The notes beneath the pieces are model-generated. The model did no database searches. It saw only the letters and a program-made list of their open reading frames with translations, and had not been told where the DNA came from. Below, piece after piece: positions 8,976-53,880 of a DNA stretch of 64,000 nt; the first letter of the stretch is position 1; the number at the start of each line of letters is the position of its first letter. Position numbers and translations under genes: made by a program. The stretch is from Chiloscyllium plagiosum (Eukaryota), in contig NC_057719.1 in assembly GCF_004010195.1 (NCBI RefSeq), positions 5,589,258-5,653,257 of the forward strand. The letters run 5' to 3'.

Positions 8976-11122
8976 GCCTCAGCCACTCCAACCTCCTGCC
9001 CTCACAAAGTGCAGCCCTCCATTCCCTCCGCTCCAACCCCCAACCCGCAGACAAGGGGGGGGGCACAGTAGTAGTGTGGCGCCCTGACTCTACACAGCTG
9101 AAGCCAGGCCCCAACTTGAAGATACCTCCTCCTATTGTTCCCTCGATCATGACCTCACCTCCCAACACCAAATCATCATCTGCCAGACCATCCACAACCT
9201 CACCACCTCTGGGAATCTCCCATCCACAGCCTCCAACCTCATTGCCAGTGAACCCCGCATTGGCCAATTCTATCTCCTTCCTAAGATCCACAAACCTGAC
9301 TGCCCCAATCGACCCATTGTCTCAGCCTCCGCCTGTCCCACCGAACTCATCTCTTCCTACCTCGACACCCTTCTGTGCCCCTTAGTCCAGGAACTCCCCA
9401 CTACATTCGGGACACCACCCATGCCCTTCGCCTCCTCCAAGATTTTTGTTTCCCCGGCTCTGTACGCATCGATCCGCCACGACGAAGGTCTCCAAACCCT
9501 CAGTTTCTTTCTCTCACCCTTTCCCAACCAGTACCCTTCCACCGACACCCTCATACGCCTAGCTGAATTGGTCCTCACGCTCAACAACTTCTCCTTCCAA
9601 TCCTCCCACTTCCTCCAAACCAAAGGGGTAGCCATGGGCACCCACTTGGAACCCAGCTATGCCTGCCTGCTTGTTGGATACGTGGAACAGTCCATCTTCT
9701 GCAGTTACACTAGCACCACCCTCTACCTGTTCCTCCGCTACATCGATGACAATATTGGCACCGCCTTGTGCTCCCACGAGGAGGTTGAACAGATCATCAA
9801 CTTTACCAACACCTTCTGCCCGACCTCAAACTCACCTGGACCATCTCGGACACCTCTTCTCCACCCCCACCCCCTCTTCCTGGATGTCTCCATTAATGTC
9901 TCTAGCGACCGACTAACTACAGATATATGCTACAAGCCCACCAACTTCCACAGCTACCTAGACTCCACCTTCTCCCATCCTAACTCTTGTAAAAATGCTT
10001 TCCCTTATTCCCAATTCCTCCACCTCTGCTGCATCTGTTCCCAGATGATCAGTTCCACCTCAGAAAGTCCCAGATGGCCTCCTTCTTCCACGATCGCAAC
10101 TTCCTTTCCCGCGTGATTGACAATGCCCTCCAGCGCATCTCCTCCACTTCACACACCACTGCCCCTGAACTCCACCACTCCCAACGCAACAAGGACCGAA
10201 CCCTCCTGGTCCTCACTTTCCACCCCACCAACCTCCACATATAACACATCATCCTCCGCCACTTCCGCCACCTCCAAACAGACCCCACTGTCAGAGATGT
10301 ATTTCCCTCCCCACCCCTATCAGCATTCCGAAAAGACCATTCCATCTATGACTCCCATGTCAGGTCCATACCCCCCACCAGCCCAGACCCCACTCCTGGC
10401 ACCTTTCCCTGCCACTGCAGGAAGTGCAAAACCTGGGCCTATGCCACACCCCTCACCTCCGTCCAAGGCCCCAAGGGATTCTTCCACATTTGTTAAAAAT
10501 TTACCTGTATCTGTACCAATGTCATCTACTGCATCCATTGCACCCACTGTGATCTCCTCTACATCGGGAAGACAGGACATCTTGCGGATTGTTTCAGAGA
10601 ACATGTCTGGGACACCAGCACCTACCAACCCCACCGCCCCGTGGCTGAACACTTCAACTCCCCCTCCCACTCCGTCAAGACCATGCAAGTCCTGGGCCTC
10701 CTCCACTGCCAAACCGTTACCACCCGACGCCTGGAGGAGGAACGTCTCAAATTCTGCCTAGAGACCCTGCAACCGCACAGGATAAATGTGGATTTCAACA
10801 GCTTCCTTTTTTCCCCTCCCCCACATTATCCCAGTCCCTAGCCTCCAACTTGGCACCGCCCTCCGGACCTGTCCTTCACTCTCCCCTCTGCCCTAACACT
10901 TTTTCCCTCACCTTCATCCACCTATTCCTTTCTCAGCTACCTTCCCCCAAACCCCACCCCCTCCCATGTATCTTTCAGCCGCGACCCACAGCCTCATTCC
11001 TGATGAAGGGCTTATGCCCGAAATGTCGATTCTCCTGCTCCTCAGATCCTGCCTGACATGCTGTGCTTTTCCAGCACCACACTCTCGACTCTGATCTCCA
11101 GCATCTGCAGTCCTCACTTTCT
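8975..11122 (+). mobile_element. Penelope-like element: frameshifted RT, GIY-YIG endonuclease and 3' pLTR
   Basis: ORF 9421-10116 has QTKGVAMGT, YACLLVGY, LRYIDD and YKPTNFHSYL. The C-terminus AEHFNSPSH...RRLEEERLKFCL follows. The pLTR carries a hammerhead core at 11000-11027. Confidence 0.92.
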
Positions 11123-11124
11123 CT

Positions 11125-18450: not shown

Positions 18451-19887
18451 GCTTTTTGAATAAGTTGAATCAGTTATAATGGGCCAAATGGGCCCCACCT
18501 AGCTGCATCATTATATTGTAACACATATATCTATTAAATGAGGGGGGAATGATCAAAATTCCACAAATAATGCAAAATTATTTCATGTTTTTAAATAAAA
18601 ATGGAAAAACATATTGTCCAAATAGAATCCTGTATTGGAAGTTAATGTAGATGTGTTCTACTTGTGATGGAAATCTCAAGAACTTACTTATGACGTTGAT
18701 GTTCAGGATATTATACTGTTCCCTTCACTTGTAAAATAAGTACTTTTTGCAGTTTTCATATGATATCCTCCATATCTCAAATAGGGCAAAAATATTTGTT
18801 CATCGCCAGCATCAAATAAAACATACATTATGGCAAGATACAATCCTTGATTAGCTTTAAAGGAAACCTGAATTTAATGTGACTGTCCAGGTACTCACTA
18901 CCAATTACAAATTATAACTATAAATGCTATCAGTTTTATTTTAGCTACTCTGCAAGGATGAGAAATCCATTAGAAGAGCTTCTAAAATTCCAAGATTGCA
19001 GTGAACCCAAGTACAGAGCTGTCAATTCCCCAGCTATCTGGGATTTGTTATTTTTTGACAAAATGTGCCAATTTGAGTGTGACAGGACCATATCGATAAT
19101 GATTTTTGGTTGCTGCTAACGCTTGAAAATTGCAGCAATGATGAAGGATTGTCAACAAGTACATAGATGCTCTGGGACAGGTACTGGCTATAAAGGATTG
19201 CTGTATATGTCTATTGGTTATGGATTAATAAGCCATTTTCCATTCTTCATGCATTTTTCTATCATGGCAGCACCAATCTCTAAATTTGTCGCAAGAGTTG
19301 ACCAGAATACGTTACAAGACAGCCTGCGATTGCCGATGGTTCGATGTCTTGGCTGTCCATTTATCCAGGTGTTTTGAAATACCAAATCAGAAAATACCAT
19401 TCCAGATTAAGTAATAAACTATATTGATCTATGATTACCCACAGTTTTGCTCAAAGATTTTCAAGAAACTTGTTGCAGATGACTTTGTATCTTTCTCCCA
19501 TCCCTTTCCTTCCTTTCAAAAAGACTGTGATCATGTAGTGTTCACATTGACCCAAGCAAATTTTAATACTGGCAATCACTGAAGACTAAAATATACACAC
19601 ATTATTTTTTGACCTAACTCCACTTGCAGCAATCCTTTTCCTTTGATCTGTAGTTAGATCAAAGCTTCTTTCATTTGACTGCTGTACAGAATCATCAACA
19701 ATAAGCATAGAACTCAATGTTCTTCAATTATAACTGGTCAGATTGTGCTTTCAACTATCCTGTTGTGTTTTTACAGCTTGAGTTTGCTTAGATTCATAGT
19801 GAATATTTTTACCTCATATATAAATCCTTTTAAATGCAAATGGATCACAGCTGAAATGGCTCAAGATATTTCTGTCAGTAGGCCTCC

Positions 19888-20458
19888 CTACGCGGAGCGT
19901 TTCAGAGAACACCTCTGGGACACCCGGACCAACCAACCCAACCACCCTGTAGCTCAACATTTCAATTCCCCCTCCCACTCCACCAAGGATATGCAGGTCT
20001 TTGGACTCCTCCATCGTCAGACCACAACAAAACGACGGTTGGAGGAAGAACGCCTCATCTTCCGCCTAGGAACCCTCCAACCACAAGGGATGAACTCGGA
20101 TTTCACCAGTTTCCTCATTTCCCCTCCCCCCACCCTGTCTCAGTCAAATCCATCAAATTCAGCACCGCCTTCCTAACCTGAGATCTTCTTCCCGACCTCT
20201 CCGCCCCCACCCCAGTCTGACCTATCACCCTCACCTTGACCTCTTTCCACCTATCACATTTCCAACGCCCCTCCCCCAAGTCCCTCCTCCCTACCTTTTA
20301 TCTTAGCCTGCTGGACAAACTTTCCTCATTCCTGAAGAAGGGCTTATGCCCGAAACGTCGATTCTCCTGTTCCCTGGATGCTGCCTGACCTGCTGCGCTT
20401 TTCCAGCAACACATTTCCAGCTCTGATCTCCAGCATCTGCAGACCTCACTTTCTCCTC
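19888..20458 (+). mobile_element. Young 5'-truncated Penelope-like element (GIY-YIG C-terminus and pLTR)
   Basis: AERFREHLWDTR...VAQHFNSPSH...RRLEEERLIFRLGTLQPQGMN; CpGs are retained. Hammerhead core at 20332-20359. Confidence 0.9.
20332..20359 (+). ncRNA. Minimal type I hammerhead ribozyme motif in a PLE pLTR
   Basis: CTGAAGA-a-GGGC-ttat-GCCC-GAAAC-GTC: CUGANGA and GAAA cores, 4-bp stem II, palindromic ACGT in place of stem III, and a GUC triplet. Confidence 0.75.
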
Positions 20459-20921: not shown

Positions 20922-21142
20922 CTGGTAGAAATGGCTGAAAATGTGTTGCTGGAACAGCGCAGCAGGTCAGGCAGCATCCAGGGAACAGGAGAATCGACAT
21001 TTCGGGCATAAGCCCTTCTTCAGGAACGTCGATTCTCCTGTTCCCTGGATGCTGCCTGACCTGCTGCGCTGTTCCAGCAACACATTTTCAGCTCTGATCT
21101 CCAGCATCTGCAGACCTCACTTTCTCCTGGTAGAAATGGCTG
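20922..21142. mobile_element. PLE-derived fold-back element (family A) with 16-bp TSD
   Basis: TSD ctggtagaaatggctg at 20922-20937 and 21127-21142; ~60-bp inverted arms; hammerhead core on the minus strand at 20996-21023. Confidence 0.88.
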
Positions 21143-22507: not shown

Positions 22508-22910
22508 TAAAAGCAAAATACTGTGGATGCTGGAAATCTGAAATTAAGCGGAAAGTGCGAGAGAAATTCAACAGGTTTGGCAGCATCTTTAAAGGAAACA
22601 AACGGTTAACGTTTCGAGTCTGACTTCAGAACTGAAGGAGACTCACTAAAATAAAACAAAGAACTGTGGATGCTGGAGATCTGAAACAAACAGGAATTGT
22701 TGGCAAAGCTCAGAACAGTTCTGAAGAAGGGTCACAAGACTGAAACGTTAACTCTGTTTTCTCTGCTGCCAGACCTGCTGAGTTTTTCCAGCAGTTTCTG
22801 TTATTGTTTGTCTGAAGAAGAGTCATATTGGACGCGAAACATTAACTGTTTCTTCTGCACAAATGCTGCTGAATCTTTTGAGTTTCTCCAGCACTTTCTG
22901 TTTTATTCCT
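22508..22910. mobile_element. Cluster of older PLE-derived pLTR/fold-back remnants
   Basis: tgtggatgctgga motifs in inverted arrangement with ctgctgagtttttccagca; ctgaagaag...gaaac cores at ~22721 and ~22812. Confidence 0.7.
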
Positions 22911-23849: not shown

Positions 23850-24465
23850 CCACGGAAATCCACATCAGGGAGACAGGACGCCAACTTGCAGAACGTTTCA
23901 GGAAACCTCTCTGGCATACATGCACCAAACAACCCCATTGCCCTGTGGCCGACCACTTCAATTCCCCCTCCCACGCCATAAGGACATGCAAGTCCTGGGC
24001 CTCCTCCACTGCCAAATCAAAGTCCCCCGACAACTTGAGGAAGCACCCCTCATCTTCCGCCTTGGGACCCTTCAATCACACAGCATCAACATTGACTTCA
24101 TTAGTTTCCAAAGTTCCCCTTCCCCACCTCATCCCAGATCCAGCCCTCCAACTCGGCACTACCCTCTTGACCTGTCCTACCTGTCCATCTTCCTTCCCAT
24201 CTTTTCGCTCCACCCTCCCCACCAACCTATCTCAATCACACCTGACTTGCATCTACATATCGCCTTCCCAGCTACCTCCCCACCCCCACCCCCACCTTCC
24301 TATTTATCTTTCAGTCCCCTTCCCTCCTCCATATTCCTGATGAAGGGCTTATGCCTGAAACACCGACTCACCTGCCCCTTGGATGCTGCCTGACCTGCTG
24401 CACTTTTCTAAGGCCATACTTTTTGACTGTGATCTCTAGCATCTGCATTCCTCACTTTCTCCTAG
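23850..24465 (+). mobile_element. Penelope-like 3' fragment (GIY-YIG and pLTR)
   Basis: HIRETGRQLAERFRKPL...ADHFNSPSH; pLTR with cctgatgaagggcttatgcctgaaac. Confidence 0.85.
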
Positions 24466-31947: not shown

Positions 31948-32595
31948 ATTCAGCCAATTATGAGAAAGTGAGGACTGCAGATGCTGTTGAGTCAAAGTCA
32001 AAACATGTGGCACTGGAAAAGCACAGCAGGTCAAGCAGCATTCGAGGAGCAGGAGAATCGACATTTCAGGCATAAACCCTTCATCACTGAGCAACCCCAC
32101 TGTCCTGTGACCAACCACTTCAACTTCCCCTCCCACCCCCCCAAGGACATGCAAGTCCTGGGCCTGCTCCTCTGCCAAATCCAAGCCACCCGACGACTGG
32201 AGGAAGAACACCTGTCCTTCCACTTGGGACCCATCAACCACACAACATTAACTTCACGAGTTTCCAAATCTCCCCTCTCCCCACCTCATCCCAGATACAA
32301 CTGCCCAAATCGGCACCGCTCTCTTGACCTGTCCTATTTGTCCATCTTCCTTCCCACCTATCTGCTTCACCCTTCCCACTGACCTATCATTATTACCCCC
32401 ACCTGTATCCACCTATCACCTTCCCAGCTATTTTCTCTCCACCCCCACCCCACTCTCCTATTTACCTCTCAGCCCCCTTCCCTCCTCCACATTTCTGATG
32501 AAGGGCTTATGCCAGAAATATGGATTCTTCTGCTCCTCGGATACTGCCTGACCTGTTGTGCTTTTCCATTGCCACATTTTTCAATTCAGTCAATT
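31948..32595 (+). mobile_element. Truncated PLE with 5' inverted pLTR and ~12-bp TSD
   Basis: Inverted pLTR (~31961-32086) joined to the GIY-YIG tail (NHFNFPSHPPKDMQVLG) and a direct pLTR. attcag(c/t)caatt occurs at 31948-31959 and 32584-32595. Confidence 0.85.
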
Positions 32596-32706: not shown

Positions 32707-32944
32707 GATACCTGATAAATGTCAAAAAGTATGGTGCTGGAAAAGCACAGCCGGTCAGGCAGCATCTGAGGAGCAGCAGAGTTGACATTAACTCTTCTTT
32801 CCTGATGAAGAACTGATGCTTGAAACATCGAGTCTCCCGCTCTTTGGATGCTGCCTGACCAGCTGTGTTTTTCCAGCACCACACTTTTCGACCCTGATCT
32901 CTAGCATCTGCAGACCTCAATTTCTGCTAATTGATACTTGATAA
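32707..32944. mobile_element. PLE-derived fold-back element (family A)
   Basis: Inverted arms tggtgctggaaaagcacag / ctgtgtttttccagcacca; TSD gatac(c/t)tgataa. Confidence 0.8.
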
Positions 32945-35453: not shown

Positions 35454-35669
35454 ATCCCAAACACTACGGCGAAAATGAGGACTGCCGATGCTGGAGATCA
35501 GAGTCAAGGTTAGAGTGGTGCTGGAAAAGCACAGCAGGTCAGGGAGCATCCAAGGAGCAGGAAAATCGACCTGATCAAGAGCTTTTGCCCGCAACGTTGA
35601 TTTTCCTGCTCCTCGGATGCCGCCTGACCTACTGTGCTTTTCCAGCACCACTCTAACCTATCCCAAACA
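35454..35669. mobile_element. PLE-derived fold-back element (family A, reverse orientation)
   Basis: Arms ggttagagtggtgctggaaaagcacag / ctgtgcttttccagcaccactctaacc; TSD atcccaaaca. Confidence 0.85.
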
Positions 35670-38544: not shown

Positions 38545-40295
38545 GGGTACAGCACAGTACAGCCCTTTGGCCCATGATGTTGTGCCGAGCATTTATCTTA
38601 ATCTGAGATCAACCTAACCTACACACCCCTCAATTTACTGCTGTCGTGTGTTTGTCCAGCAGCCACTTAAATGTCCCTAATGTCTCTGTCTCTACTACCA
38701 CTACTGCCAGTGCATTCCATGCACCCACCACTCTCTGAGTAAAGAACCAACCTCTGACATCTCCCCTATTATTTCCTCCAATCACCTTAAAAGTATGACC
38801 CCTTGTGACAGCCATTTCTGCCCTGGGGAAAAGTCTCTGGCTATCTACTCTATCTATGCATCAGTACACCTTGTACACCTCTATCAAGTCACCTCTCTTA
38901 CTTCTTCTCTCCACAATGAAAAGCCCTAACTCACTTAACCTCTCTTCATAAGACAGGCCCTCCAATCCAGGCACCATTCTAGAATCTGCTCTGCACCCTA
39001 TCTAAAGCATCAAAATCCTGCCAATGAGGCAACCAGAACTGGGCACAATGTTCCAGGGTTCCAGGGTTTCAGGATGCAAAGATCATCGCCAGAGGTGCAG
39101 CAATCTCACTCCTTGCTGCCCGTAGTAATCTTGGATATATCTGGTCAGGCCCTGGAGACTTATCTATCTTGATGCTTTCCAGAATTTCCAGTAAATCCAC
39201 TTTCTTAATATCAATCTGTTCAAGCCTATTAACCTGGTACACGATGGTCTCACTATCAATAAGGTCCCTCTCCCTAGTGAATACTGAAGCAAAAAAACTA
39301 ATTTAGGGCCTCCCTCACCTCTTCAGATTCCACTATCCCTGATCGGCTCTACCTATCTCTGATCATTCTGTTAATCCTCACGTAAGTATAGAACACCTTT
39401 GGATTTTCCCTAATCCATCCCGCCAAGGCTTTTTCGTGCCTTTTCCTAGCTCTCCTCGGTCCATTTTTGCATTCTTTCCTAGCCTCCCTGTAATCCTCGA
39501 AAGCTGCGCTAGCTCCTTGCCTCCACCACCTTAAATAAGCTTCTTTCTTCCTCTTGATGAGAAGCCCCTCTTTTCTTGTCATCCAAGGCTCCTTCACCTT
39601 ATCATTCCTTGCCTGTCTCAGTGGGACAAAGCTATCCAACACTCGCAACAAGTGCTTCTTAAACAGCCTCCACATTTCTATTGTGCATTTCCCGTAGAAC
39701 AATTGTTCCAAATTTATACTCCACAGCTCCTGTCCAATAGCAGTGTAGTTCACCCTCCCTGAATTTAATACCTTCCCATACCGTCTGCTGCTATCCCTCT
39801 CCATGGCTATGGTAAAGGTGAGGCAGTGTGGTCACTGCCACCAAAATGCTCTCCCGAGAGATCTGACACCCAGCCTGGCTTGTTGCCCAGCACCAAATCC
39901 AATATGGCCTCCCCCTTGGTTGGCCTATCTACATATTGAGCTGGAAATGTGTGGCTGGAAAAGCGCAGCAGGTCAGGCAGCATCCAGGGAACAGGAGAAT
40001 CGACGTTTCGGGCATAAGCCCTTCTTCAGGAAGAAGGGCTTTCCTGAAGAACGGCTTATGCCCGAAACGTCGATTCTCCTGTTCCCTGGATGCTGCCTGA
40101 CCTGCTGCGCTTTTCCAGCAACACATTTCCAGCTCTGATCTCCAGCATCTGCAGACCTCACTTTCTCCTATCTACATATTGAATCAGGAATCCTTCCTGG
40201 ACACACCTGACAAAATCAACTCCATCCAGACCACCTGCACTAAAGAGGTTCTAAGCAATATTGAGGAAGTTGAAGTCACCCATAACAACAACTTT
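38545..40295 (-). mobile_element. Internally deleted CR1 (3' end plus upstream ORF2/endonuclease region)
   Basis: ORFs 38630-38815(-) and 39349-39804(-) (EPWMT...ENPKVFYTYV); VVVMGDFNF endonuclease motif near 40270. Confidence 0.8.
39924..40182. mobile_element. Young PLE-derived fold-back element with two opposed hammerhead cores and 16-bp TSD
   Basis: TSD cctatctacatattga at 39924-39939 and 40167-40182; ~95-bp near-perfect inverted arms; cores at 40002-40029(-) and 40044-40071(+). Confidence 0.92.
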
Positions 40296-40409
40296 GTTAC
40301 ATCTGCACATTTCCAAGATCTGCTGTCCAATCTGTTCTTCCATCACTTTGCATTTACAAAAATGAGAGGTAACCTTACTGAAACATTCAAGCCTCTTAGG
40401 GACTTGTAA

Positions 40410-42339: not shown

Positions 42340-44140
42340 GAATCATAGAGTTACAGAGATATACAGCATGGAAACAGACCCTTTGGTCCAACTCATCCAT
42401 GCCAACCAGATAAGCTAAATAAATCTAGTCCCATTTACCAGCACTTGGCCCATTTCCCTCGAAATCCTTCCTATTCATATACTCATCCACATACCTTTTA
42501 AATGTTGTAATTGTACCAGCCTCCACCATTTCATCTGGCAGCACACACCACCTTCTGCATGAAAAAATTGCCCCTTAGGTCCTTTGTAAATCTTTTCCCT
42601 CTCACCTTAAACCTATGCCCTCTAGTTTTAGACTTCCCCACCCCAGGGAAAAGACCTTGTTTATTCAATCTATCCATGCCCCTCATGATTTTATAAATCT
42701 CTATATGGTCACCTCTCAGCCTCCGACGCTCCAGGGAAAACAGCCCCAGCCTATTCAGCCTCTCCCTGTAGCTCAAACCATCTAACCCCTGTCAACGTCC
42801 TTGTAAATCATTTCTGAACCCTTTCAAGTTTCACAAGTTTTCCTTCCTATAGCAGGGAGACCAGGGCTGCATACAGTATTCCAAAAGTGGCTTAACCAAT
42901 GTTTTGCACAATGACAACAGGACCTCCCAATTCCTATACTCAGTGCACTGACCAATAAAGACAAGCATACCAAATGCCTTTTTCACTATCCTATCTACCT
43001 GGGAATCCACTTTCAAGGAACTATGAACCTCACTCCGAGGTCTCTTTGTTCAGGACTACTCTCCAGGACCTTACCATTAAATGTATAAGTCCTGCCTGAT
43101 TTGCCTTTCCAAAATGCAGTACTACATATTTATCTAACCTAACTCCATCCGCCACTCCTCAGCCCATTGGCCCATCTCATTAAAATCCCATTGTACTCTG
43201 ATGGTAACCTTCTTTGCCATGCACTATACCTCCAATTTTGGTGTTACCTGCAAATTTACTAGCCATTTTTCATATGCTCACAACCAAAGCATTTATATAA
43301 ATGACAAAAAGCAGTGGACTGAGCAGTGATCCTTGTGGCACATGGCAGGTCAAAGGCCTTCAGTCTGAAATGTAATCCTCCACCACCACCCTCTGTCTTC
43401 CACCTTTGAACCAGTTCTGCATCCAAATGGCTAATTTTCTCTGTATTCCATATGATCTAACCTTGCTAACCAGTCTACCAAGAGGAACCTTGTCAAACAC
43501 CTTACTGAACTGAAAATGTGTTGCTGGAAAAGCGCAGCAGGTCAGGCAGCATCCAAGGAACAGGAGAATCGATATTTCGGGCATGAGCCCTTCTTCAGCA
43601 TCGGGCATGAGCCTGAAGAAGGGCTCATGCCCAAAACATCGATTCTTCTGCTCCTTGGATGCTGCCTGATCTGCTGCGCTTTTTCAGCAACACATTTTCA
43701 GCTCTGATCTCCAGCATCGGCAGTCCTCACTTTCTCCTAGAAGAAACGCCTTACTGAAGCCCATATAGATTACATTCACCACTCTGCCCTTGTCAATTCT
43801 CTTCTTATTTCTTCCAAAAACCCAATCAAGTTAGTCAGACATGATTTCCCACGTACAAAGTCATGTTGACTATCCCCAGTCAGCCTCTGCCTTTCCAAGT
43901 ACATGGAACTCCTGTCCTTCAGGATTCCCTCCAGCAACTTGCCCACCACCAATGTCAGGCTCACTGGTCGATGGCTCGCTGGCTTTTCTTTACCCCCTTT
44001 CTTAAATAGTGGCACCACGTTAACCAACCTCCAGTCTTCTAGCACCCCACCTGTGGCTATCGATAATACGGGTATCTCAGCAAGGGGCCCAGCAATCATT
44101 TCCCAAGGTTCCCACAGAGTTCCAGGGTAGACCTGATCAA
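42340..44140 (-). mobile_element. CR1 inserted into an old fold-back PLE remnant (arms ~42250-42340 and ~44141-44265)
   Basis: CR1 ORF fragments 42531-44099(-). The flanking arms tggaaaagctcagcaggtctggcaacatctgtggag and ctccacagatgctgccaaacttgctgagcttttcca are reverse complements. Confidence 0.88.
43495..43758. mobile_element. PLE-derived fold-back element with 15-bp TSD inside the CR1
   Basis: aaac(a/g)ccttactgaa at 43495-43509 and 43744-43758; two opposed hammerhead-like cores. Confidence 0.9.
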
Positions 44141-46950: not shown

Positions 46951-47204
46951 TTCAAATCAATTGTAGTCGAGAGTGTGGTGCTGGGAAAGCACCGCTGGTC
47001 AGGCAGCATCCGAGGAGCAGGCGAATCAACATTTCGGGCATTAGCCCTTCATCAGAAATGGAATAATTCCTGAAGAAGGGATTATGCCCAAAACGCTGAT
47101 GCTCCTGCTCCTCGGATGCTGCCTGACCTGCTGTGCTTTTCCAACACCACACTCTCAATTCTGATCTCCAGCACTTTCCTCACTTTCTCCTTCAAATCAG
47201 TTGT
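46951..47204. mobile_element. PLE-derived fold-back element with 14-bp TSD
   Basis: ttcaaatca(a/g)ttgt at 46951-46964 and 47191-47204; opposed hammerhead-like cores. Confidence 0.88.
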
Positions 47205-53163: not shown

Positions 53164-53880
53164 AGCGAGTTTTGAGAAGATTTGTAGCTGAGATTGAGGT
53201 TCTGGATGTAGGTTTGCTCGCTGAGCTGAAAGGTTCATTTTCAGATGTTTCGTCACCATACTAGGTAACATCATCAGTGAGCCTCCGGAGAAGCCCTGGT
53301 GGCTTGGCCCGCTTTCTATTTATGTGTTTAGATTTCCTTGGTTTGATGATGTCATTTCCTGTGGTGACATCATTTCCTGTGGCTATGCCATTTCCTGTTA
53401 TTTTTCTCGGGTGGTAAATAGGATCCAAGTCAATGTGTTTGTTGATAGAGTTCCAGTTGAAATGCCATGCTGCTAGGAATTCTCATGCATGTCTCTGTTT
53501 GGCTTGTCCCAAGATGGATGTGTTGCCCCAGTCGAAGTGGTGTCCTTCCTCATCTGCATGTAAGGATATTAGTGAGAGTAGGTCATGTCTTTTTGTGGCT
53601 AGTTGATGTTCATGTACATACATGAACCACAAAAAAGACATGACCCGCTCTCAGTAGTAGCATGATTTTCCAATCTGAATTCTATCAACAAACACATTGA
53701 CTTGGATCCCACTTACCAAACTAAGGACATCACCAAACCAAGGAAACCTAAACACGTAAATAGAAAGCGGGCCATGCCACCAGTGCTTCATCCGGATTCT
53801 CACTGATGATATTACCTAGTATGGTGATGAAACGTCTGAAAACAAACCTTCCAGCTCAGCGAGCAAACCTACATCCAGAA
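53164..53880. mobile_element. Large fold-back of a different PLE family (family C)
   Basis: ~150-bp outer inverted arms and inner arms centred near 53617. The minus strand encodes HEHQLATKRHD...HHFDWGNTSILG. Hammerhead cores at ~53244-53278(-) and ~53803-53837(+). Confidence 0.88.

What the first reader, a model, noticed from the sequence alone, without database searches (positions are those of the whole stretch)
39924..40182. Mini fold-back retroelement with two back-to-back hammerhead ribozyme cores
Seen: a ~230-bp non-coding insert between exact 16-bp direct repeats, made of ~95-bp near-perfect inverted arms. Each strand has CTGAAGA-stem II-GAAAC-GTC (40002-40029 minus, 40044-40071 plus). 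CpGs are intact, which suggests a young insertion. Known: Penelope-like pLTRs carry minimal type I hammerheads with a palindromic stub for stem III, thought to need dimerisation. Inference: this is a tiny ribozyme-bearing unit with a core on either strand. The long hairpin would compete with the ribozyme fold and could act as an off switch.
Basis: partly seen in the sequence, partly recalled or inferred. Interest (0 to 1): 0.75.

Follow-up and report, generated by a model that had tools for sequence, protein, structure and literature searches.

The report
Double-primed Penelope stub, not ribozyme switch
This hairpin is one of thousands of short mirror-image insertions left by a Penelope-type jumping gene in a shark-like genome and is likely a dead by-product rather than a ribozyme switch, but the shared end point of its sister copies, often with an extra G, likely marks the capped start of the element's RNA and offers a test of how these elements copy themselves.

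Summary
In detail: exact 16-bp target duplication, 95-bp arms with 2 mismatches, a hammerhead core on each strand. It is a young insertion of a GIY-YIG Penelope-like element: two short copies of the element's end repeat (pLTR) joined head to head, the known 34-nt tail on one arm only. About 6,000 such junctions match one exact pattern in this genome; 123 of 179 sampled insertions carry an inverted arm. The switch idea is not supported: the cores lie on opposite strands, the + core has lost G10.1, both keep two stem I pairs, and cores are no better conserved than neighbours. Family level: arms end mostly just before the hammerhead, not at its cut site, and G precedes ATTCC in 4,874 of 8,093 non-native cases (28.5% expected). 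Best reading (inferred): both nicked DNA strands prime copying of a capped RNA that starts 4 nt before the core; the run-off copies are then joined. Architecture and ribozyme are in print; the cap reading was not found in 10 searches, but this scan has noted it before on other DNA.

The parts
39924..39939 (.). left target-site duplication (16 bp; last 2 nt also fit the arm)
   Evidence: single copy in paralogues of the host repeat
39938..40032 (-). inverted pLTR arm, positions -3 to +91 counted from hammerhead C3, no tail
40002..40029 (-). minimal hammerhead core, intact letters, only 2 stem I pairs; predicted cut between 40002 and 40001
   Evidence: numbering and features from PMC4209133
40033..40040 (+). 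junction insert, matches pLTR +5 to +12 (with 40030-40032 and 40041 a 12-nt re-copy of +2 to +13); likely a slipped re-copy at joining
   Evidence: sequence directly; pair I5; 16 of 24 junction inserts of 5 nt or more hold a 5-mer of this region
40041..40169 (+). direct pLTR arm, positions -3 to +125
   Evidence: 127 of 128 identical to 20330-20457
40044..40071 (+). minimal hammerhead core with G10.1 changed to C at 40052; predicted cut between 40071 and 40072
   Evidence: the C form occurs only here among 7 loci with this junction
40136..40169 (+). 34-nt Penelope 'tail' present on one arm only
   Evidence: tail described in PMC8557442, PMC3846280, PMC11167929
40167..40182 (.). right target-site duplication (first 3 nt also fit the tail end)
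19876..20457 (+). longer 5'-truncated copy of the same family used as reference: endonuclease C-terminus, native sequence upstream of the hammerhead, pLTR and tail; predicted RNA start at A 20328
   Evidence: GIY-YIG match of the longer relative L163

Best explanation
This is a young insertion of an endonuclease-bearing Penelope-like retroelement made of two short pLTR copies joined head to head, likely written by two separate priming events, one from each nicked strand of the target, on a sense RNA whose predicted capped start lies 4 nt before the hammerhead core. Shown: identity with the family, one-sided tail, 16-bp duplication, thousands of sister insertions, arm ends piling up at -6 to -1, G excess before A(-4). 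From the literature (anole element, in vitro, PMC11167929): the protein nicks and extends both strands and starts copying at two internal sites that bound the tail. Inferred: one strand starts at about +125 and the other at about +90, both copies run off the RNA's 5' end after 95-130 nt, and the two ends are joined by short homologies with slipped re-copies such as the 8 nt here. The two hammerhead cores are passengers; the long hairpin would keep them unfolded, with no sign of selection for that.
For: Family: 127 of 128 nt identical to a copy behind an endonuclease C-terminus; Pfam GIY-YIG E 0.00047, 20.8 bits against a cut-off of 22.6; 9 homologues at E 0.001 or better, 7 of them NCBI or ENA records, the best named from sharks. 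Abundance: 6,001 and 6,058 strand matches, control 0; 38,202 exact tail matches. Ends: tail-arm starts at -10..+15 in 138 of 179, inverted-arm ends in 96 of 123, none at -14..-11; 144 of 332 arms not chosen by their 5' end start at -6..-1. Two starts: outer end of the inverted arm at +87..+93 in 80 of 107; duplication found in 100 of 107, 13-16 bp in 86; tail-less short arms also occur alone, with flanking repeats visible in the printout. Symmetry: tail arm longer in 29, equal in 11, shorter in 45 of 85; same junction with the tail on either arm, 4 against 3. Cap mark: letter before ATTCC G 4,874, A 2,278, T 941, 60% against 28.5%; not explained by the inverted arm G 21 of 36 at -4 against 5 of 35 at -3, Fisher p 0.00017; 12 of 21 after the strictest pruning, p 0.006. 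Native TCATTC at that place fits the initiator consensus (recalled, no call). Cut site: 5 of 332 arms start at +27..+29, neighbours 5, 5 and 4.
Against: No RNA 5' end was seen: raw RNA reads of run X21 show a 4-fold depth step at the hammerhead edge but no pile of molecule starts, and the consensus of 96 loose ends before -4 ends in T, not G (agreement 0.37). Arms of one insertion nearly always share subfamily letters (100 of 102 at +85; 18 both against 3 one-sided at +42), which fits copy-back or one RNA read twice as well as two RNAs. The commonest single end in the tail-chosen sample is -3 (45), not -4 (24); this element itself ends at -3 on both arms and has no extra G. Read-through is not rare: 15,132 arms keep native sequence to -8, 16 of 179 run past -20, and the 15 of 194 dropped for unreadable flanks may be long copies. 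G could also come from terminal addition at an uncapped end or from junction homology (3 of the 21 G lie inside the duplication). The reverse-transcriptase part of the long copy could not be read, so that domain is untested. Samples come almost wholly from the first 62 Mb of one contig.
Confidence: 0.7

Rival explanations
1. One priming event plus fold-back: a single cDNA runs off the RNA's 5' end, folds on itself and is copied back, or an antisense template self-primes as proposed in PMC3846280; the RNA start may still be at -4.
For: Arms share subfamily letters in 100 of 102; arms differ 2.0% within and 3.0% between elements (74 elements); 53 of 107 junctions overlap by short homology.
Against: Copy-back needs the tail arm to be the longer at the junction, but it is shorter in 45 of 85 and longer in 29; the same junction occurs with the tail on either arm; many junctions leave a loop too short to fold (one search list); inverted arms stop at a fixed site that solo tail-less arms also use.
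Confidence: 0.15
2. Short palindromes are what is left of longer inverted copies after later deletion of the centre, and the pile-up reflects a repair or copying block at the stem II hairpin rather than an RNA end.
For: Long inverted copies exist (L163); junctions look like end-joining scars (47 of 107 with inserts); ends spread to +15.
Against: Non-inverted insertions pile up at the same place (19 of 56 at -6..-3, 42 of 56 at -10..+11); the upstream edge is sharp (no ends at -14..-11); G excess is specific to the base before A(-4).
Confidence: 0.08
3. One reading: a self-propagating mini element with a working ribozyme on each strand and a hairpin off switch.
For: Both core motifs are present and the hairpin is predicted to bury them; 6 other loci share the exact junction; the fly element works with a 2-bp helix I (PMC4209133), so short stem I alone does not exclude activity.
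Against: Opposite strands; G10.1 lost on +; no better conservation of cores; 81 of 107 junctions unique; the 7 same-junction loci differ in tail side and subfamily letters.
Confidence: 0.04
4. The ribozyme does cut the template in vivo and a minor class of copies ends at the cut site (+28); this would concern sister copies, not this one.
For: By eye, 14 of 100 listed starts between +24 and +31 fall at +28, 19 with a variant letter, against 7-14 at other positions; 7 of 30 by script.
Against: At most a 1.5-fold bump; 5 of 332 arms at +27..+29 like neighbouring bins; no read ends pile there in run X21; this element spans the cut site on both arms.
Confidence: 0.03

Closest known systems
Inverted-pLTR insertions of endonuclease-bearing Penelope-like elements (Pen2a_Av in PMC3846280; Fig. 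2 legend of PMC8557442; D. virilis Penelope in PMC2377424)
   Same: Inverted 5'-truncated pLTR next to a direct one, 30-40-nt tail on one side, whole unit flanked by a target duplication, palindromic head-to-head junction, initiator-like motif in the pLTR.
   Different: Here the unit is reduced to the two pLTR pieces with no ORF, duplications are 13-16 bp (8-10 in the rotifer), and such stubs are the majority form of the family.
Minimal type I hammerheads of metazoan Penelope pLTRs (PMC4209133)
   Same: CUGANGA, one unpaired base, stem II, GAAA, palindromic stub without loop III; that paper also reports pairs of minimal hammerheads 100-700 bp apart on opposite strands in Schistosoma mansoni.
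   Different: Cores only 14 nt apart; stem II is 4 bp; the + core lacks G10.1; stem I is cut to 2 pairs.
Anole Poseidon element PAc (PMC11167929)
   Same: Hammerhead near the front of the unit, tail bounded by two fixed end sites; in vitro both strands are nicked and extended and ribozyme cutting is not needed for insertion.
   Different: That study did not, in the parts read, explain inverted arms or map the RNA's natural start; its ORF starts in stem II, here the first long ORF starts about 160 nt after C3.
Non-LTR retrozymes (10.64898/2026.07.22.740005)
   Same: Non-coding, hammerhead-bearing, related to pLTRs.
   Different: Retrozymes are head-to-tail tandem arrays; this is a head-to-head pair with one core per strand.
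L1 twin priming (recalled, no call)
   Same: Both target strands prime, giving an inversion.
   Different: In L1 the two pieces do not overlap; here they duplicate the same 95 nt.

Membership tests
EN+ Penelope-like element insertion | pLTR continuous with a C-terminal GIY-YIG endonuclease ORF in longer copies | tested here: met
   Same pLTR follows the ORF end at 19877-20457 and in L163; GIY-YIG E 0.00047, just under the curated cut-off
EN+ Penelope-like element insertion | Telomerase-like reverse transcriptase in the same ORF | not testable with these tools
   The middle of the long copy L163 could not be read
EN+ Penelope-like element insertion | Inverted 5' pLTR with a 30-40-nt tail on one side | tested here: met
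   34-nt tail on the right arm only; outer end at +87..+93 in 80 of 107 sisters
EN+ Penelope-like element insertion | Target-site duplication around the whole unit | tested here: met
   16 bp here; 100 of 107 sisters
Minimal type I hammerhead of PLEs | Core letters CUGANGA, GAAA, UH and palindromic stub | tested here: met
   Both strands
Minimal type I hammerhead of PLEs | G10.1-C11.1 pair closing stem II | tested here: not met
   Not met on the + core (C at 40052); met on the - core
Minimal type I hammerhead of PLEs | Helix I (4-5 bp in Schistosoma, 2 bp in D. virilis) | tested here: inconclusive
   2 pairs in both cores; parent 2 pairs, a U-U mismatch and one more pair
Minimal type I hammerhead of PLEs | Self-cleavage as a dimer | not testable with these tools
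   Needs an assay; cores on opposite strands cannot pair within one RNA
Non-LTR retrozyme | At least two head-to-tail units each with a hammerhead on the same strand | tested here: not met
   Head-to-head, one core per strand
Self-propagating fold-back mini element | Many copies sharing one junction and one polarity | tested here: not met
   90 junction types in 107; 7 loci with this junction split 4 to 3 in tail side

The most novel reading that the evidence does not exclude
The stubs are a genomic record of the Penelope cycle: the element's Pol II transcript begins at an initiator 4 nt before the hammerhead core, is copied uncut and in sense from two internal start sites onto both target strands, and the cap is copied as an extra G. 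Short run-off copies are then the default product, long copies need read-through from an upstream partner, and the head-to-head inversion needs no antisense template.
Probability: 0.6. Interest if true: 0.6.

Novelty: new member of a known kind. Interest (0 to 1): 0.36.

Why it matters
The single insertion is ordinary. The family is useful because the origin of Penelope's inverted ends and the role of its hammerhead are stated as open in the papers read (PMC3846280 Discussion proposes self-priming on an antisense template and asks for tests; PMC8557442 calls the ribozyme's function unclear; PMC11167929 leaves later steps unvalidated). Thousands of independent junctions give sharp predictions for the existing in vitro system: RNA start at A(-4), cap-dependent G, two primings per site, and no need for ribozyme cutting. 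They would also explain why active elements need a partial tandem.

Tried and rejected
Empty site in other individuals or species: contigs of 4 runs laid on the left flank gave no locus-specific spanning record, as the flank is itself an old repeat; inconclusive, replaced by the paralogue test. Expression: no RNA holder listed for the flank; run X22 laid nothing; 92% of X21 reads run on into unlike sequence, so they mostly reflect dispersed copies. Rfam: no hammerhead model matched. Cut site as the main end point: rejected. Splice acceptor at -4: no AG upstream in the native sequence. Control at -5 was blurred by a subfamily with native C at -6. A first census and a first conservation test (script stopped with an error after the folding output; its arm choice biased the neighbours) were discarded and redone. 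Energies of hand-drawn hammerhead folds were not used. Searches used an off-frame translation and mean nothing; the structure-bank search was not repeated. The sigma-70 scan does not apply to this host. Lunse et al. 2016 (PMC5785218) was not held, seen only as a reference title; supplements of no paper were opened, and those of PMC4209133 or PMC11167929 may list shark motifs or RNA starts. Paper searches; none showed the cap or double-priming reading in titles, abstracts or the passages read.

Full report
Observation. The element is as described: identical 16-nt repeats at 39924-39939 and 40167-40182, 95-nt inverted arms with two mismatches and 8 nt between them, and a minimal hammerhead pattern on each strand at the stated places. 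It folds far better than shuffles (z -24). It sits in an old LINE-like repeat on the minus strand (endonuclease-end and reverse-transcriptase-start motifs; the CR1-type label is recalled). Ten blast hits from other copies of that repeat run across the joined empty site, and the four printed show the 16-mer once, so the duplication was made by the insertion.

Identity. The right arm is 127 of 128 nt identical to 20330-20457, which follows the end of an open frame. The longer relative L163 gives a GIY-YIG match (E 0.00047, 20.8 bits, cut-off 22.6), and its best database relatives are named from Chiloscyllium, Rhincodon and Stegostoma. The arms are therefore pLTR pieces of an endonuclease-bearing Penelope-like element in a shark-like genome. 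Counting from hammerhead C3 as 0, the left arm is -3..+91 inverted, the right arm -3..+125, and +92..+125 is the one-sided tail known from these elements (PMC8557442, passages; PMC3846280, passages and Discussion). The reverse transcriptase could not be read.

Abundance. One exact junction pattern matches 6,001 and 6,058 times on the two strands, control 0, about 6,000 loci. The tail pattern matches 38,202 times, the finding's own subfamily 4,631 times. I sampled insertions by the tail alone: 194 elements, 15 dropped for unreadable 5' flanks, 179 kept (a few with two tails counted twice), 123 with an inverted arm. After removing doubles, 107 fold-backs had a full outer end; 100 had a duplication by a finder that accepts 7 nt or more, 86 of 13-16 bp; 80 ended at +87..+93. 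Their junctions fall in 90 types, 81 seen once; 53 overlap by short homology, 7 are blunt, 47 hold inserts. This element's exact junction occurs at 7 loci, with the tail on the left arm in 4 and on the right in 3 and with different subfamily letters. That points to repeated independent formation, not to a unit being copied.

The ribozyme. The motif fits the minimal hammerhead of PMC4209133 (parts 1-2 of 4 read), which also reports pairs on opposite strands and little or no activity of single motifs. The two cores can never be sense in one RNA. The + core has C for G10.1, private to this locus. Both keep two stem I pairs; the parent can add one after a U-U mismatch; the fly element has a 2-bp helix I, so this is not decisive. 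In a transcript of either strand stem II has predicted probability 0.0. Across 106 arms, core positions changed in 16 of 1,058 cells and neighbours in 45 of 3,916 (p 0.35): copies decay neutrally. The 'off switch' is thus a structural side effect with no sign of selection.

Where the arms end. Tail arms start at -10..+15 in 138 of 179 and inverted arms end there in 96 of 123; no end lies at -14..-11; 2 and 5 lie at +26..+30. Non-inverted insertions behave alike (42 of 56 at -10..+11). Of 332 arms not chosen by their 5' end, 144 start at -6..-1, 31 run past -12, 5 start at +27..+29 (4 more dropped as indels). Of 108 bystander arms of all ages, 3 scored as having upstream body and 5 more were borderline. 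Read-through is still substantial: 15,132 arms keep native sequence to -8. At the predicted cut site there is at most a small bump: by eye 14 of 100 listed starts at +28 (19 with a variant letter, 6 ambiguous) against 7-14 elsewhere in +24..+31, 7 of 30 by script.

The extra G. Where ATTCC (A = -4) is preceded by a non-native base, it is G 4,874, A 2,278, T 941 times: 60% against 28.5% from base composition. In sampled loci, after setting aside 12 of 48 explained by the inverted arm, G is 21 of 36; one base further in (-3) it is 5 of 35 (17 of 52 set aside), p 0.00017; by eye 15 of 100. After dropping any case whose last 5 letters occur in the pLTR or end in CTG, 12 of 21 remain G (p 0.006). 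An added C at the cDNA end marks a template end and is the usual trace of a cap (recalled). [quoted passage not shown] Against: RNA run X21 shows a depth step from 70/96 to 305/416 across the hammerhead edge but no pile of starts or ends, and its 96 loose ends before -4 have a consensus ending in T, perhaps from older subfamilies with native T there (printout). The commonest single end is -3, and this element has no extra G.

Mechanism. PMC11167929 (parts 1-2 of 4 read) shows that an anole Penelope protein nicks and extends both strands, starts at two internal sites bounding the tail and does not need ribozyme cutting. Put with the ends above: a transcript starting at A(-4) offers only 95-130 nt between those sites and its 5' end; two primings give a tailed and a tail-less arm, joined head to head. 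Simple copy-back predicts a fixed asymmetry, but the tail arm is longer in 29, equal in 11 and shorter in 45 of 85. Arms share subfamily letters almost always (100 of 102), so one RNA read twice, or two RNAs from one source, cannot be told apart here. These steps are inferred, not shown.

Novelty. The shape and the ribozyme are in print. I did not find the cap or double-priming reading in ten searches (listings, and the readings named above; 10.64898/2026.07.22.740005 part 1 of 5). My reading was noted before any look-up; the scan's own notes hold the same reading for other windows of this and other genomes. They are unchecked and are not counted as support. Verdict: a new member of a known kind, ordinary by itself, with a family-level signature that makes an open question testable. 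Interest 0.36.

Noticed in passing
window 20934-21128, 43503-43739, 46974-47191, 32736-32929, about 35515-35651: More fold-back or junction-bearing stubs of the same family at different ages, each with its own junction; 20934-21128 shares a rare letter on both arms.
   Followed up: partly
window 10997-11123, 24334-24464, 31959-32086, 32492-32579: Single pLTR arms of older subfamilies starting at or near the hammerhead's 5' edge.
   Followed up: partly
window 53803-53836 (+) and 53244-53277 (-): A second hammerhead-bearing family with a longer stem II, two cores head to head about 525 nt apart.
   Followed up: no
window 22721-22749 and 22812-22843 (+): Two hammerhead-like cores of another family in tandem on the same strand, 91 nt apart; a candidate for the dimer arrangement.
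   Followed up: no
L163:1370-5648: Near full-length copy with a 310-nt inverted arm, a tail-less 3' end, an internal tail running into the 5' region, and a first ORF of 139 codons followed by a second frame.
   Followed up: partly
L053/L054 and L072/L073: Fold-backs with a tail on both arms; 4 of 107 had outer ends at +121 or beyond.
   Followed up: partly
window 38800-40400 (-): Decayed LINE-like host repeat, about 70-79% alike to other copies, interrupted by the insertion near the end of its endonuclease region.
   Followed up: partly
listing, e.g. L303, L310: A subfamily with C in place of T at -6, which weakens the initiator match yet has many copies.
   Followed up: no
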